From assembly GCA_951406725.2 (NCBI GenBank), contig OX597821.1, positions 41,788,001 through 41,852,000 on the forward strand: a stretch of DNA of 64,000 nt, written 5' to 3'. Within the stretch, counting starts at the first letter, position 1. Each line of letters opens with the position of its first letter. Positions 3,637 to 60,130 of this stretch are shown here, piece by piece. Position numbers and translations under genes: made by a program. The notes beneath the pieces are model-generated. The model was given only the letters and a program-made list of their open reading frames with translations, made no database searches and had not been told where the DNA came from. Origin of the DNA: Octopus vulgaris (Eukaryota).

Positions 3637-3680
<44 letters not shown>

Positions 3681-3684
<4 letters not shown>

Positions 3685-4020
3685 TAAATTAGAGATAAAA
3701 CCACTATTAGGCAAATCATACAATGAAAAACTTAAGCCAATACATAAGATTAATTAATTTATATTATTTAAATATATATCAAAATTATTTAAAAAGATAA
3801 TTATATTAATTATCTTTTTTAATAATTTTGATATATATTTAAATAATATAAATTAATTAATCTTATGTATTGGCTTAAGTTTTTCATTGTATGATTTGCC
3901 TAATAGTGGTTTTATCTCTAATTTAATATAATATAATATTTTACTATAAAATTGGATTCAATTCTAAATCTGATTTTTCCCTGTAAGTTTGGATTTATTC
4001 CCTAATATTTTATTATTTAT
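3681..4020. mobile_element. Fold-back element family P1: about 123-bp near-perfect arms (3681-3803 / 3806-3929) plus about 90-bp unique tail
   Basis: Direct inspection of arms; tail tttttccctgtaagtttggattta shared with the 16762 and 17542 copies; embedded in (TA)n. Confidence 0.85.
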
Positions 4021-17541: not shown

Positions 17542-17895
17542 TGCAACTCAAACAGTGATAGACATAAACCAAAACACAAATAACAAAATATACTTTTATA
17601 AAACATATAACTAGATCACAAAAAGTATAAAAATGAATCATCAAAATATAAGTATTATACTTATTACTTATTATATATTTATTATTCATTCTTATACTTT
17701 TTGAGATCTAGTTATATGTTTTATAAAAATATATCTTATTTGTTATTTATCTTTTGGTTTATCTATCACTGTTTGAGTTGCACGATAATGGTTTTATCTC
17801 TAATTTATATTTTATATATTTTATATTGTGAAATTTGATTTAATACTTAACTGAATTTTTCCCAGTAAGTTTAGAGTTATACTCCTTATTATTAT
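17542..17895. mobile_element. Family P1-related fold-back, arms about 17542-17640 / 17683-17782 plus tail
   Basis: tgcaactcaaacagtgataga / tctatcactgtttgagttgca; tail ggttttatctctaattta...tttttcccagtaagttt. Confidence 0.75.
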
Positions 17896-23306: not shown

Positions 23307-23416
23307 TTTTTGCACTGAAGAGAATGGTAATACATGACTATTTTAATTATTATTGTTACAATTCATGTTTTTTCTTACATGTTGGTATTACCATTCGAAA
23401 CGGTCGTATGTAGAAA
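23307..23416 (+). ncRNA. Type-I hammerhead ribozyme candidate with intact catalytic core
   Basis: Stem I tttttgca/tgtagaaa; CUGAAGA 23315-23321; perfect 12-bp stem II gaatggtaatac/gtattaccattc; GAAA 23397-23400; stem III acg-gt-cgt; GUA cleavage triplet ending at 23408. Confidence 0.72.
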
Positions 23417-26156: not shown

Positions 26157-26690
26157 TATCAATGGCCAGCATATTAAAAAATACCTTTAAAGGTTAAATT
26201 TATAAACAATTTATAAGTAAGAGCAAAAGAAAATATTTCTAATGCCAAAATATGCCGAAAATAGATACAACGTCAATAAGCATGTAATTTATCACAACAA
26301 GCACGCGTTTCGAAGAAAGCCGACTGAAATTTCTAAAAAATTACGTTATTACCATATCGGACCCGATTTCAGAGTTTGTTCATAAGAACCTTCCCTTCAT
26401 CAGTGATAAATGCGGCAAAGAAATAAGTGAAATACTTACTTATACCCACGGAAGAAGCGAACACTAAGTCATGAGCACAATTAAGTATCCCAAATATATC
26501 CAAGATTGAAACTCTCTAGCTCATCCCGAGACACATGCGATTCGAACTAAAAACTCTCGTAAAGTGAGTGAGTCCGGAAGTGAATACTATTAAATTAACA
26601 TCTACATTGTTATTGGCGTTGTCTCTATTTTCAGCTTATTTTGGCATTAGAAATTCTTTCTTTTGCTCTTACGCTCTTACTTATCAATGG
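26157..26690 (-). mobile_element. Penelope-like pLTR fragment: inverted arms (about 26213-26285 / 26605-26683), hammerhead motif at 26354-26409, flanking direct repeat tatcaatgg
   Basis: Minus strand ttatca-CTGATGA-aggg...ctct-GAAA-tcgg-GTC-cgata; tail agcatattaaaaaa shared with the 39660 element. Confidence 0.7.
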
Positions 26691-38869: not shown

Positions 38870-40065
<1,196 letters not shown>

Positions 40066-43185: not shown

Positions 43186-44258
43186 ATAGGCAAATTTGTT
43201 GTTGAAAATGCACCTAAATTTGAAACACTTGTTTTTAAATAAGTGGCTGTGTGGTAAGTACCTTGCTTACCAACCACATGGCTCCGGGTTCAGTCTTACT
43301 GCGTGGTGCCTTGGGCAAGTGTCTTCTATTATAGCCTTGGGCCAACTAAAGCCTTGTGAGTGGATTTGGTAGACGGAAACTGAAAGAAGCCCGTCGTATT
43401 TATATATATATGTGTGTGTGCATGTTTGTGTGTCTGTGTGTTTGTCTCCCATCATCTCTTGACAACTGATGCTGGTGTGATTACGTCCACGTAACTTTGC
43501 GGTTCGGCAAAAGAGGCCGATAGAATAAGTACTAGGCTTACAAAGAATGAGTTCTGGGGTCGATTTGTTCGACTCAAGGCGGTGCTCCAGCATGGCCGCA
43601 ATCAAATGACTGCAACAAATAAAAGAGTAAAAGAGAATATATACCAAACTAGCTTCAACAATATTTTTTTGTTTATCAATGGTAAAAATTTAGAATTATG
43701 AATTAGAAAAACATGTTTAAAAATTTCAACGTTGACAGGTTTAAATGTTCATAACAGTCAATAATATAAAAACTGTGGATCAACATGTTTAAATGTACAA
43801 AATTTAGTAGTGTTAGTAGTGTTAATAGTGGTCGACAAGAAATGAATATCATCAAAGTTTCAGTCATACTGTGTTAAGAGGGAGAAAAACAAGGGAGAAA
43901 TGAAGATAGTAAAAAAGGGATTCGGTTTACAGTTTCTGTGATTCTCATTTTGTTGTATTTGCTGTGAAACGTTGATGATATTCATTTCTTGTCTACTTAC
44001 ACTACTAACACTTTTGAATTTCGTACATTTAAACAAGTTGATCCGCAGTTTTTATATTATGGACTGTTATGAACATTTAAACCTGTCAACATTGAAAGTT
44101 TTAAACATGTTTTTCTAATTCATAATTCTAAATTTTTACCATTGATAAACAAAAAAAAATTGCTGAAACTAGTTTGGTATATATGTAAATAATTTTGTTT
44201 TAAAACAATTTCAAGTTTTTCAAATTTAAGTGCATTTTCAACAACAAATTTGCGTGTA
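43186..44258. mobile_element. Large fold-back element, arms about 280 bp (43186-43240 plus 43638-43862 / 43965-44258)
   Basis: gcaaatttgttgttgaaaatgcac / gtgcattttcaacaacaaatttgc and long internal inverted match; left arm interrupted by SINE B. Confidence 0.85.
43240..43637 (+). mobile_element. SINE family B inside the fold-back arm
   Basis: gtggctgtgtggtaag...ccttgggcaagtgtctt...aaaagagtaaaagag. Confidence 0.9.
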
Positions 44259-46550: not shown

Positions 46551-46804
46551 TTTACCAATAAAGTAATGCTTATGTGACTGTTATTTCTTTTTCTTTCTTT
46601 TTTTTCTTTGTTTATTTGTTTTTTATTTCAGCCATTAAACTGTGGCGTTGCTGAGGCACCGACATGAAGACGTTTTGGTCGCATGAATCGACCCAAGTAC
46701 TTTTTTAAGCCTAGTGCTTATTCTATCGGTCCCTCTTGCCGAAACGCTAAGTTACGGGGACATAAACACATAAACACCGGTAGTCAAGCTGTGGTGGGGT
46801 ACAA

Positions 46805-46844
<40 letters not shown>

Positions 46845-46882
46845 GACACATATAGATATATATGAAAGAAGACCGTTGTATG

Positions 46883-46921
<39 letters not shown>

Positions 46922-46925
<4 letters not shown>

Positions 46926-47350
46926 AAAGGGTGAAATTAATTAATTAGGGATAATTATCAATTACACCAAGTAGATTTCGGTATGTAAAAGCCCCATTCG
47001 AGGAAAATTTAAGTAATACTAAGTAATTAAGGGTTTAGCAACGAATTGCCTCACCAACACACCGAATTTAGAAATAGCAGTCAAAGAGATATAGCTATTC
47101 CTTCTACTAAAAGGGGGATCTCAGTAAAAACACAGCACTTAAAGGCAAACACAGACAGGTAAGAAAGAAAGAATGAAATGAATTGCCGTCATTTCATTCT
47201 TTCTTTCTTACCTGTCTGTGTTTGCCTTTTAAGTGCTGTTTTTTACTGAGATCCCCCTTTTAGTAGAAGGAATAGCTATATCTCTTTGACTGCTATTTCT
47301 AAATTCGATGTGTTGGTGAGGCAATTCGTTGCTAAACCCTTAATTACTTA

Positions 47351-47354
<4 letters not shown>
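46922..47354. mobile_element. Fold-back insert in (TA)n: about 95-bp tail plus about 165-bp near-perfect arms (47016-47181 / 47189-47354)
   Basis: Direct inspection; (TA)n on both sides. Confidence 0.9.
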
Positions 47355-47406
<52 letters not shown>

Positions 47407-47414
<8 letters not shown>

Positions 47415-47760
47415 GTTGTATACTGTTAATCTAACACGAACGTGACAGTAGGGGGGTACACCACCGCTGTATAGCCCTAGGAAGCATCGAACGCCTCCTG
47501 ATGGCTTTGACACATTTTTCCCTGTGTCCTTATATACATTTACGAAGGGGAGACAAACACCCCCGGCCGCCGAAGCTGCATCTAGGGACACGTGTTTCAG
47601 GATCATTGTCCTTCATCGGCCTACAAATGTGTCAAAGCCATCAGGAGGCGTTCTATGCTTCCTAGGGCTATACTGTCACGTTCTTGTTAGATTGACAGTA
47701 TACAACCATTCTATCGCCCCACCACCGTACATGTCTCTACGAGAGATTTAGAAATTCAGT
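47407..47760 (-). mobile_element. Fold-back insert in (TA)n with hammerhead in the spacer; arms 47407-47517 / 47625-47714
   Basis: atagaatggttgtatactgt / acagtatacaaccattctat; about 20-bp indel in left arm. Confidence 0.85.
47583..47623 (-). ncRNA. Minimal type-I hammerhead ribozyme motif
   Basis: uagg-CCGAUGA-agga caauga uccu-GAA-acacgugu-C-ccua: all three stems pair, palindromic stem III, GUC site, single core change U4C. Confidence 0.78.
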
Positions 47761-47764
47761 ATTT

Positions 47765-47805
<41 letters not shown>

Positions 47806-48841
47806 GGACTTCTTTCGGTTTCCGTCCACCAAATCCATTCGTTCACAAGGCCTTGGTCGGCCCGAGGCTATAGTAGGAGACACATGCTCAAGGTGCCACG
47901 CAGTGGGACTGAACCCAGAACCATGTAGTTGCAAAGCAAGCTTCATAAAATACAGCCACGTCTGTGCCTGAAAGAAAAGAAAAATTCCACTTCTGATGTT
48001 ATGTTCTTTATCAATTTCGCAAAGTATTTTCATTAAAATTCTTTACATCTTCCCTACTAAAAAGCGAAAATGGCGCAAAAGAACGAAGGAATTAATGTTT
48101 TTAAAGTCAAGGAATTTTATTTCGATAATTTATCACCGATTCCGTGAAGGGGTCAATGACATAAGCAGTTTGCTGACCCCTGATCTAAACTAAGTCGAAC
48201 AAACGATGTTTATGGAAATTTTGATGACTAAATAGGTTTCACTGCCTTTGAGAATTATATCAAGCCAATCTGTGGTTAAATCAGCTCCGCAGTAAATGAT
48301 ATTTATCGATTAGATTTCACTGAAAACGATCTCCACCAAATTTGTTGCCCCTTCATCAAGGCGCAATGCGTTCCGTGTTATGTGCATTAATAAATTTCTC
48401 CAAAAGGTATCACTTTGAAATTAATTATTTCCAAATTTTATTTGTCTTTGTAACATAGCATGCATTATGCCGAATAATATCGATTCTGTCATTTGATAAT
48501 ATCAATTTATGTCATTTCACCTAGAAATTCGATTGTAGGCTAATGACCAGAGCAAATATAAGAGAGACTTTAAGACAGTTAATCATTGACAATCCATCCC
48601 ATACTTTGCTTCAAACAATACTCAAAACAAACAGATTAGACCGAGAGAGAATGACGGACGTTGAACTGACGTTTATCCATTAATATAATGGGACATCTTT
48701 TAACTATGACATCAACGGTGAGGGGGGGGGGATATTTTCTTGATTTCGGCACCAAAAGCCATCAACAATGAGCCCAAGACTGTGAAGAATGGTTTACTCT
48801 GAAACTCATTACGGTTTACTTTCAACACAGGTCAAACGCTT

Positions 48842-59976: not shown

Positions 59977-60130
59977 TTGTTTGCCAATATAACATGGCAG
60001 TCCTGGTTTAGGACGAATGTTGCTGTAATTTAGATCCTGTCGTATAGCCAGCTAGAGACGATGTCTCCAGGAGCTTAATTACAGCAACATTCGTCCTAAA
60101 CCAGGGCTGCCATGTTATGTTGGCAAACAA
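59977..60130. mobile_element. Fold-back family P2, near-perfect arms of about 55 bp
   Basis: ttgtttgccaatataacatggcagtcctggtttaggacgaatgttgctgtaatt and its reverse complement; 12-bp direct repeat taaaagaaagtt at 59955 and 60143. Confidence 0.85.

What the first reader, a model, noticed from the sequence alone, without database searches (positions are those of the whole stretch)
46922..47760. Two different fold-back inserts stacked in one (TA)n tract, one with a near-perfect minimal hammerhead
Seen: a hairpin with 165-bp arms, then (TA)n, then a second inverted pair whose spacer holds uagg-CCGAUGA-agga..uccu-GAAACACGUGUC-ccua on the minus strand immediately next to the arm boundary. This is the clearest single locus showing target, arms and ribozyme together.
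Basis: partly seen in the sequence, partly recalled or inferred. Interest (0 to 1): 0.7.

Follow-up and report, generated by a model that had tools for sequence, protein, structure and literature searches.

The report
Two Penelope-type retrozyme insertions, C4 hammerheads
Two unrelated non-coding jumping repeats sit side by side in one TA tract; both families carry a hammerhead-ribozyme motif with C in place of the usual core U, and their lopsided mirror shape likely records a borrowed Penelope-type enzyme copying one RNA from both cut DNA strands, which makes them new members of a known kind (retrozymes).

Summary
The two fold-backs are independent, truncated copies of two dispersed non-coding repeat families: A (588-nt unit) and B (about 365 nt), each with hundreds of copies and one type I hammerhead motif per unit. 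Position 4 is C in the family, not U (B: 97 of 100 listed), so this is no near-perfect mutant. The copy here has lost most of stem I. Insert A stops about 30 nt short of its own C4 hammerhead. The arms are not terminal repeats. Each insertion is two copies with their 3' ends outward, one tailed and one tail-less (54 of 54 classifiable insertions), at fixed distances from the cut site, with 8-16-bp target duplications. This is the known Penelope-like footprint. The inner junction beside the ribozyme is not fixed. Two statistics add something: the inner ends of the two arms are coupled, and A-type arms stop too often at the predicted cut site. Cleavage, circular RNA and the partner enzyme are untested. 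The scan noted this kind of element many times elsewhere in this genome. Verdict: new members of a known kind.

The parts
46889..46922 (.). (TA)17, left part of the target tract
46923..47181 (-). Insert A, tailed (S1) arm: family-A unit positions about 293 down to 35, counted from the predicted hammerhead cut; 3' end faces left
   Evidence: 99.6% to a real monomer over 262 nt
46923..47015 (-). Insert A tail, 93 nt: the stretch between the two fixed end points, present on one arm only
47182..47351 (+). Insert A, tail-less (S2) arm: unit positions 28 to about 197; its first 7 nt form the hairpin loop. Both arms stop 27-34 nt short of the cut site, so no family-A hammerhead is in the window
   Evidence: 97.8% to the monomer; junction
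47352..47409 (.). (TA)29 between the two inserts
47410..47623 (-). Insert B, tail-less (S2) arm: family-B unit from about +177 through the cut site to 37 nt upstream of it
   Evidence: 98.2% to a real monomer over 217 nt
47583..47623 (-). Type I hammerhead motif: stem I 5' strand UAGG 47623-47620, core CCGAUGA 47619-47613 (U4C), stem II 4 bp with 6-nt loop, GAAAC-ACGU-GUC, predicted cut between 47587 and 47586, stem I 3' strand CCUA. Only 4 of the family's 6+4 stem I pairs remain
47625..47766 (+). Insert B, tailed (S1) arm: unit positions 70 to about 232, with a 21-nt internal deletion near 47671-47673; 3' end faces right
47715..47766 (+). Insert B tail (about 55 nt between the two fixed end points)
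47767..47804 (.). (TA)19, right part of the target tract

Best explanation
These are two independent, truncated copies of two non-coding hammerhead-bearing repeat families (non-LTR retrozymes), each likely pasted into the same TA tract by a borrowed Penelope-like retrotransposon enzyme that nicks both DNA strands and likely copies one RNA twice. Shown: each family is a head-to-tail unit (A 588 nt, B 363-367 nt) without a long ORF and with one hammerhead motif; copies end at two fixed points; two-armed copies pair one tailed with one tail-less end, 3' ends outward; target duplications are 8-16 bp. Inferred: the enzyme makes staggered nicks in AT-rich DNA; one nick primes reverse transcription at the downstream start (S1) and the other at the upstream start (S2) of the same multimeric or circular RNA; the S1 copier usually trails the S2 copier; the two truncated cDNAs are joined head to head by end joining, giving a lopsided palindrome. 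Inferred: the C4 hammerhead cuts slowly or only as a dimer, so most templates are read through the cut site while a minority, already cut, give run-off there. The stacking arises because each insertion leaves TA on both sides as a new target. The window's hammerhead copy is likely inactive.
For: Units and arrays: (longest ATG frame 57 aa). Exact-match counts near the 3' ends: B 1810, A 747, controls 0. Census of 68 B and 48 A insertions: 97 of 104 B and 72 of 76 A outer ends fall in the two end classes; 30 of 30 B and 24 of 24 A inserts with both ends classifiable are S1+S2; 3' ends face outward in 36 of 37 and 28 of 28. Target duplications of 8-16 bp occur in 13 of 26 non-TA B sites (10 of 12 two-armed), control 0 of 26. 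Both arms come from one subfamily: 10 of 205 diagnostic sites discordant in B against 47% shuffled. Inner ends lie within 20 nt of each other in 13 of 30 B (shuffled 5.7, p 0.001) and 10 of 24 A (2.6, p 0.0002); the tailed arm overtakes by more than 20 nt in only 4 of 30 and 5 of 24 (shuffled about 10.5, p 0.0002). Arms pass the cut site in 34 of 97 B and 29 of 72 A. Of 83 A-type units on contig C1 that reach +9, 9 independent ones stop at +1 to +8 against 5 in the next 40 nt (p 9e-5). Stems vary with pairing kept in A: stem I 100% paired, one G-C/A-U swap in stem II. Literature: two internal RT start sites that bound the tail, cleavage and extension of both strands, predicted dimer (PMC11167929, parts 1-2 read); inverted truncated copy, one-sided tail, TA bias (PMC8557442, PMC3846280, passages). 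Intact RT+GIY-YIG frames exist in this genome.
Against: No autonomous partner was tied to A or B: the termini of the autonomous elements in the 50 GIY-YIG loci fetched show no BLAST likeness to either unit. Cleavage, circles and transcription are untested. Genome-wide exact counts across the A cut site (1280, 1136, 947) show no cliff, though the patterns catch different subfamilies; a clean (TA)3-to-position-1 junction has 0 matches. In B the excess of stops before the cut is weak (8 against 2, p 0.055). Four of the five stops at +1 to +3 on C1 are in a U4 sister family, and stops at +5 to +8 could be stalls at stem I or chance TA matches. Coupling is a tendency only: 9 of 54 tailed arms overtake, some by over 1 kb; earlier scan notes report no trailing rule in another genome and mixed-subfamily arms in another family here (unchecked). 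The A subfamily test is thin (2 of 53 sites; one shuffle went lower). End positions come from BLAST edges and are uncertain by a few bases next to TA.
Confidence: 0.75

Rival explanations
1. Same elements and enzyme, but the second arm is made by snap-back: the S2-primed cDNA folds back and copies itself, and the S1 nick contributes only the short tail.
For: It predicts what is common: the tail-less arm reaches slightly further, short loops, and 1-6-nt junction overlaps. Rare alleles are shared by both arms more often than chance in B (15 against 1.5 expected). Self-priming was proposed for Penelope palindromes (PMC3846280, passage).
Against: It cannot give the 9 of 54 inserts whose tailed arm reaches more than 20 nt further, and needs very large loops in others, such as 107 nt in insert B. 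Several of the shared rare alleles are adjacent and may be alignment artefacts, and 85 rare alleles are unshared. Snap-back of the tailed cDNA alone predicts the opposite asymmetry to that seen.
Confidence: 0.25
2. The inserts are not a self-propagating retrozyme but terminal-repeat stubs of autonomous Penelope-like elements whose coding copies were not found.
For: Most Penelope-like insertions are 5'-truncated, and opposite-strand minimal hammerheads 100-700 bp apart were ascribed to truncated elements (PMC4209133, passage). The partner search was limited to 50 loci.
Against: Arms that run past the hammerhead continue into another copy of the same unit, up to several near-identical units. No shared coding continuation was found at inner ends except a separate LINE-like insertion.
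Confidence: 0.12
3. The C4 hammerheads are dead passengers; the repeats spread from tandem DNA templates without any self-cleavage or circular RNA.
For: Hammerhead mutants did not affect insertion in vitro (PMC11167929). Eight of nine Xenopus dimers did not cleave (bioRxiv 10.64898/2026.07.22.740005). U4C lowers activity considerably in vitro (PMC3088659, passage). About a third or more of arms read through the site.
Against: Stems and the rest of the core are kept across subfamilies about 10% apart, with a compensatory change. Stops pile up at the cut site in the A lineage, including C4-clade copies L159, L222 and L224. U4C is tolerated in a natural viroid (PMC3088659).
Confidence: 0.3
4. They are MITE or foldback DNA transposons with terminal inverted repeats and TA target duplications.
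For: Inverted arms flanked by TA; non-coding.
Against: Arm length and junction vary from copy to copy, 32 of 68 B and 20 of 48 A copies have one end only, the two ends differ by a tail, duplications are 8-16 bp, and units form head-to-tail arrays.
Confidence: 0.02

Closest known systems
Metazoan non-LTR retrozymes (Cervera and de la Pena 2020, PMC7229834, passages; Li et al. bioRxiv 10.64898/2026.07.22.740005, parts 1-3 of 5 read)
   Same: Non-coding tandem units with one type I hammerhead each, low GC, target duplications longer than 4 bp, co-occurring with Penelope-like elements. B matches the 350-390-bp mussel size.
   Different: Core is CCGAUGA throughout B and in the A subfamily found here. 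A is 588 nt with a 61-nt stem II. Arrays here are short, dispersed and bounded by fixed RT-start-like ends and inverted arms, which points to one-step insertion rather than the local unequal crossing-over discussed in the preprint. Cleavage and circles are untested.
Insertion units of endonuclease-positive Penelope-like elements (PMC8557442, PMC3846280, passages; Poseidon of Anolis, PMC11167929)
   Same: Partial tandems, an inverted 5'-truncated copy, a tail on one end only, 8-10-bp duplications there against 8-16 here, AT-rich or (TA)n targets, a hammerhead upstream of two start sites.
   Different: No ORF. Tails are about 55 nt (B) and 95-110 nt (A) instead of 30-40. The strict one-tailed-one-tail-less pairing and the coupled inner ends are not stated in the passages read.
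Minimal and dimer-type hammerheads of Penelope-like repeats (PMC4209133, passages) and the natural U4C viroid variant (PMC3088659, passage)
   Same: Short stem III with a palindromic loop that can pair between two copies (8-bp duplex, about -11 kcal/mol predicted); C at position 4 has natural precedent.
   Different: U4C is the majority state of two unrelated high-copy animal families. B has an extended, bulged stem I. Rfam models do not score these motifs.

Membership tests
Non-LTR retrozyme | Tandem repeat unit of a few hundred bases | tested here: met
   A 588-591 nt, B 363-367 nt head-to-tail units
Non-LTR retrozyme | One type I hammerhead per unit | tested here: met
   Motif once per unit in both families, with the U4C deviation
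Non-LTR retrozyme | No protein coding, no LTR structure | tested here: met
   Longest ATG frame 57 aa; no tRNA gene in three loci scanned
Non-LTR retrozyme | Target duplication longer than 4 bp when present | tested here: met
   8-16 bp in 13 of 26 non-TA B sites, control 0; 1 of 2 in A
Non-LTR retrozyme | Self-cleavage of the RNA | not testable with these tools
   Only indirect: excess of arm ends at the predicted cut in the A lineage
Non-LTR retrozyme | Expression as linear and circular monomer RNA | not testable with these tools
   Only assembled contigs were available; they cannot show ends, strand or circles
Hammerhead ribozyme type I | Core CUGANGA, GAAA, NUH | tested here: not met
   All core letters present except U4, which is C in 97 of 100 B and 76 of 100 A matches listed; a known natural variant (PMC3088659)
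Hammerhead ribozyme type I | Three stems in type I order, kept in the family | tested here: met
   A: stem I 100% paired, proximal stem II 99% with one compensatory pair, stem III invariant in 16 distinct sequences; B stems. The window copy keeps 4 bp of stem I
Penelope-like insertion footprint | Two fixed 3' end points bounding a one-sided tail | tested here: met
   169 of 180 outer ends in two classes; 54 of 54 classifiable pairs S1+S2
Penelope-like insertion footprint | Inverted 5'-truncated copy, head to head | tested here: met
   36 of 37 B and 28 of 28 A two-strand inserts
Penelope-like insertion footprint | Sequence link to the terminal repeat of an autonomous element | tested here: inconclusive
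   No link in 50 GIY-YIG loci, drawn from 148 listed matches of 6136 candidates
Autonomous Penelope-like element | RT plus GIY-YIG ORF | tested here: not met
   Neither unit codes
MITE / foldback DNA transposon | Fixed terminal inverted repeats and short fixed target duplication | tested here: not met
   Variable arms, unequal ends, 8-16-bp duplications

The most novel reading that the evidence does not exclude
These insertions are a genomic record of the unsolved Penelope mechanism. A dimeric enzyme starts at two fixed sites on one retrozyme RNA, one per DNA strand, with the rear copier trailing the front one. U4C is a selected brake, reached separately in two successful families, that keeps most RNA uncut or circular for multi-round copying while still cleaving in the germ line.
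Probability: 0.25. Interest if true: 0.7.

Novelty: new member of a known kind. Interest (0 to 1): 0.4.

Why it matters
How Penelope-like elements make tandem and inverted insertions with a one-sided tail, and what their hammerheads do, are stated as open in PMC8557442 and PMC11167929. How animal retrozymes move is likewise unproven (bioRxiv 10.64898/2026.07.22.740005). These young, short, high-copy families give numbers that make the questions testable: strict S1+S2 pairing, coupled inner ends, and run-off at the cut site. Family A has C4 and U4 sister subfamilies about 10% apart, a natural pair for asking whether cleavage rate matters. Descriptors that demand CUGANGA miss such families. The locus itself is an ordinary pair of truncated copies.

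Tried and rejected
Rfam: no hammerhead match in the window, in insert B alone or in three family loci; only low-complexity miRNA noise. Folding z-scores of four motif stretches were not significant (-0.11 to -0.95). Expression: no RNA holder listed; contigs of runs guessed to be RNA cover both units but cannot show strand, ends or level, so they are not used. A contig that carried the B hammerhead in other flanks turned out to be one single-copy locus, not a partner element. Partner search: no similarity between A or B and the autonomous termini read; a second Pfam family could not be searched, which leaves Hydra-type or other partners open. A fixed inner boundary beside the hammerhead: rejected; its apparent frequency came from the query. 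The idea that U4 copies of A are older: rejected, both groups are about 98% alike within. Polarity of U4 to C4 in A: the outgroup tree did not resolve the root, so 'derived' is inference. Genome-wide count test of run-off: confounded by subfamilies, no cliff; exact TA-to-position-1 junction 0 matches. The distal helix that I named was out of register (34% paired) and is disregarded. Shared structure at S1 and S2 between A and B: none evident. Linkage of A and B: no young copy of one family in the census loci of the other (68 and 48 loci; only 3 and 1 distant relatives). Literature searches found no paper describing octopus retrozymes, U4C in animal retroelements, or paired two-site priming; the library lacks most subscription journals, and supplements (for example File S2 of PMC8557442, which lists hammerheads) were not read and may hold C4 cores.

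Full report
Observation. The locus reads (TA)17, insert A (46923-47351), (TA)29, insert B (47410-47766), (TA)19. Insert A has 166-nt arms around a 7-nt loop plus 93 unpaired bases at its left end. Insert B has arms of 108 and 87 nt (the right one has a 21-nt deletion), a 107-nt spacer and an unpaired right end. The minus-strand hammerhead motif is exactly as reported, at 47623-47583. The genome is 2.8 Gb in 227 contigs; earlier scan notes call it an octopus, and I did not determine the species.

Families. Both inserts are pieces of dispersed repeats: 2221 and 1923 first-look candidates, and 1810 and 747 exact matches to 23-24-nt words near the 3' ends, with reversed controls at 0. Longer copies show head-to-tail units of 363-367 nt (B) and 588-591 nt (A), often 99-100% alike within an array, with no ATG frame over 57 aa. 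Each unit has one type I hammerhead motif. B has a bulged stem I of 6+4 pairs, a 4-bp stem II and GAAAC-ACGU-GUC. A has a 6-bp stem I, a 61-nt stem II and GAAAC-GUAC-GUC. Among 16 distinct A sequences stem I is always paired, and stem II has one G-C/A-U swap. The palindromic stem III can pair between two copies, as described for dimer-type animal hammerheads (PMC4209133, passages). A and B are unrelated by BLAST apart from this design.

Position 4. The first 100 of 407 B matches are 97 C and 3 T (counted from the list), and the two T copies in a 65-row tree are isolated tips, as CpG decay would give (inference). In A the first 100 of 313 matches are 76 C, 23 T, 1 A. That pattern omits further U4 subfamilies and a 594-nt sister with CUGAAGA, so U4 is commoner in the wider lineage. 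C4 and U4 copies form separate groups about 11% apart, both young; the root was not resolved. The window's insert A is 99.6% like the C4 group. U4C is known from a viroid, where it lowers activity in vitro but allows infection (PMC3088659, passage).

Anatomy of insertions. I mapped 68 B insertions (all clusters on contig C1) and 48 A insertions (C1 and C2 to 117.6 Mb). Left out were one decayed and one LINE-disrupted B cluster, one B locus without a passing hit, and two A arrays too long for one locus. Counting from the predicted cut, outer ends fall at about +179 or +234 in B and +200-206 or +296-311 in A: 97 of 104 and 72 of 76 ends. Of 36 two-ended B inserts 30 have both ends classifiable, and all 30 pair one of each kind; in A it is 24 of 24 among 28. 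The 3' ends face outward in 36 of 37 and 28 of 28. TA flanks both sides in 25 of 68 B and 38 of 48 A. At non-TA sites the ends are the same, and duplications of 8-16 bp flank 13 of 26 B inserts, against 0 in the control. Both window inserts follow the rule: A has its tail left, B right. This is the Penelope-like footprint of inverted truncated copy, one-sided tail and TA bias (PMC8557442, PMC3846280, passages). In vitro the tail is the stretch between two internal RT start sites, and both target strands are cut and extended (PMC11167929, parts 1-2 of 4).

Inner junctions. They are not fixed; arms run from 29 nt to over 1.5 kb. The junction next to the ribozyme in insert B is this copy's truncation, and it removes most of stem I; in the whole insert the predicted fold does not form stem I. 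The two arms of an insert come from one subfamily (10 of 205 diagnostic sites discordant in B against 47% when shuffled; 2 of 53 in A, a thin test). They are not being homogenised: 85 rare alleles are unshared and 15 shared in B. Their inner ends are coupled: within 20 nt in 13 of 30 and 10 of 24 (shuffled 5.7 and 2.6), and the tailed arm overtakes in only 4 of 30 and 5 of 24 (shuffled about 10.5). Snap-back of the tailed cDNA predicts the reverse. Two copiers on one RNA fit, and so does snap-back of the tail-less cDNA in many cases.

Does the ribozyme cut? Arms pass the cut site in 34 of 97 B and 29 of 72 A, so those templates were uncut multimers or circles. Yet A arms stop within 10 nt before the cut 7 times against 0 after it. 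In a partly overlapping sample of 83 A-type units on C1, 11 stop at +1 to +8 (9 independent) against 5 in the next 40 nt, p 9e-5; five independent stops lie at +1 to +3, four of them in the U4 sister. B shows a weak excess (8 against 2, p 0.055). Genome-wide word counts show no cliff but are confounded, and a clean TA-to-position-1 junction is absent. I read this as likely partial cleavage in vivo, not as proof; stalling at stem I is an alternative.

Partner and stacking. The genome has a young RT+GIY-YIG family: 16 of 148 listed matches lie in 781-aa open frames. It has a CxxxxCxxC linker (Neptune-like by the motif in PMC8557442; no tree made), TA flanks and a U3-A8 hammerhead. Its termini do not resemble A or B, so it is only a candidate. 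No young A copy lay in the B census loci or the reverse, and the window alone has 50 runs of (TA)8 or more. The stack is therefore best read as two independent hits on a shared target that each insertion regenerates (inference). The order of the two insertions is not determined.

Comparison and verdict. The families meet every sequence-testable criterion of non-LTR retrozymes (PMC7229834, passages; bioRxiv 10.64898/2026.07.22.740005, parts 1-3 of 5) except the canonical U4; cleavage and circles could not be tested. My searches found no paper on these families or on paired two-site priming, within a library that lacks most subscription journals, and supplements were not read. The scan's own notes record the same kind of element, C4 cores and one-tailed pairs in this genome; I reached the reading before opening them. 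New members of a known kind; interest 0.4, mainly for the mechanistic statistics and the natural C4/U4 pair.

Noticed in passing
L205:1002-1372, L075:1470, L181:1481, L202:1030 (contig C1): A LINE-like element with a weak zinc-knuckle ORF1 hit joins family B at unit positions about 296-312, just ahead of the hammerhead, in four loci; in L205 a B unit lies between two such copies.
   Followed up: partly
L271-L277, L282-L286: Young autonomous Penelope-like family with an intact 781-aa RT+GIY-YIG frame, a UUGAUAA (U3-A8) hammerhead, 3' ends mostly at +68 from its cut and about 37 nt further in L271 and L273; L271 has an inverted copy ending at +68.
   Followed up: partly
L291:1434-1504: Single-copy insertion of little more than the B hammerhead (71 nt plus 37 nt of other sequence), flanked by a 13-bp direct repeat and not starting at either fixed end.
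   Followed up: partly
L293-L301, L322-L338: A 594-nt sister of family A (85% alike) with the canonical core CUGAAGA; several arms stop at +2 or +3 from the cut.
   Followed up: yes
L054:2071-2690: A third, distant A relative with a CUGAUGA hammerhead sits directly across a TA tract from an A array: another stack.
   Followed up: partly
window 3670-3939, 17542-17782, 26217-26672, 39740-39887, 43637-44184, 59977-60130: Further lopsided fold-back inserts of unrelated sequence, several beside TA; the one at 26217-26672 holds a canonical-core hammerhead motif on the minus strand at 26403-26355.
   Followed up: no
window about 23308-23410, plus strand: Hammerhead motif with core CUGAAGA and a long stem II.
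   Followed up: no
window 46602-46888 and 47805-47957: The TA tract is flanked by pieces of abundant SINE-like repeats (name recalled, not tested) that have other copies in the window.
   Followed up: no
L128 and L140: Two separate B inserts turn at the same point (+88), an internal 20-nt hairpin of the unit, which suggests recurrent junction formation there.
   Followed up: no
L037, L130-L131, L337-L338: Exceptions that look like later duplications: a perfect palindrome with two tailed ends (L037, from the query-biased set, not in the census) and repeated segments with identical flanks or junctions.
   Followed up: no
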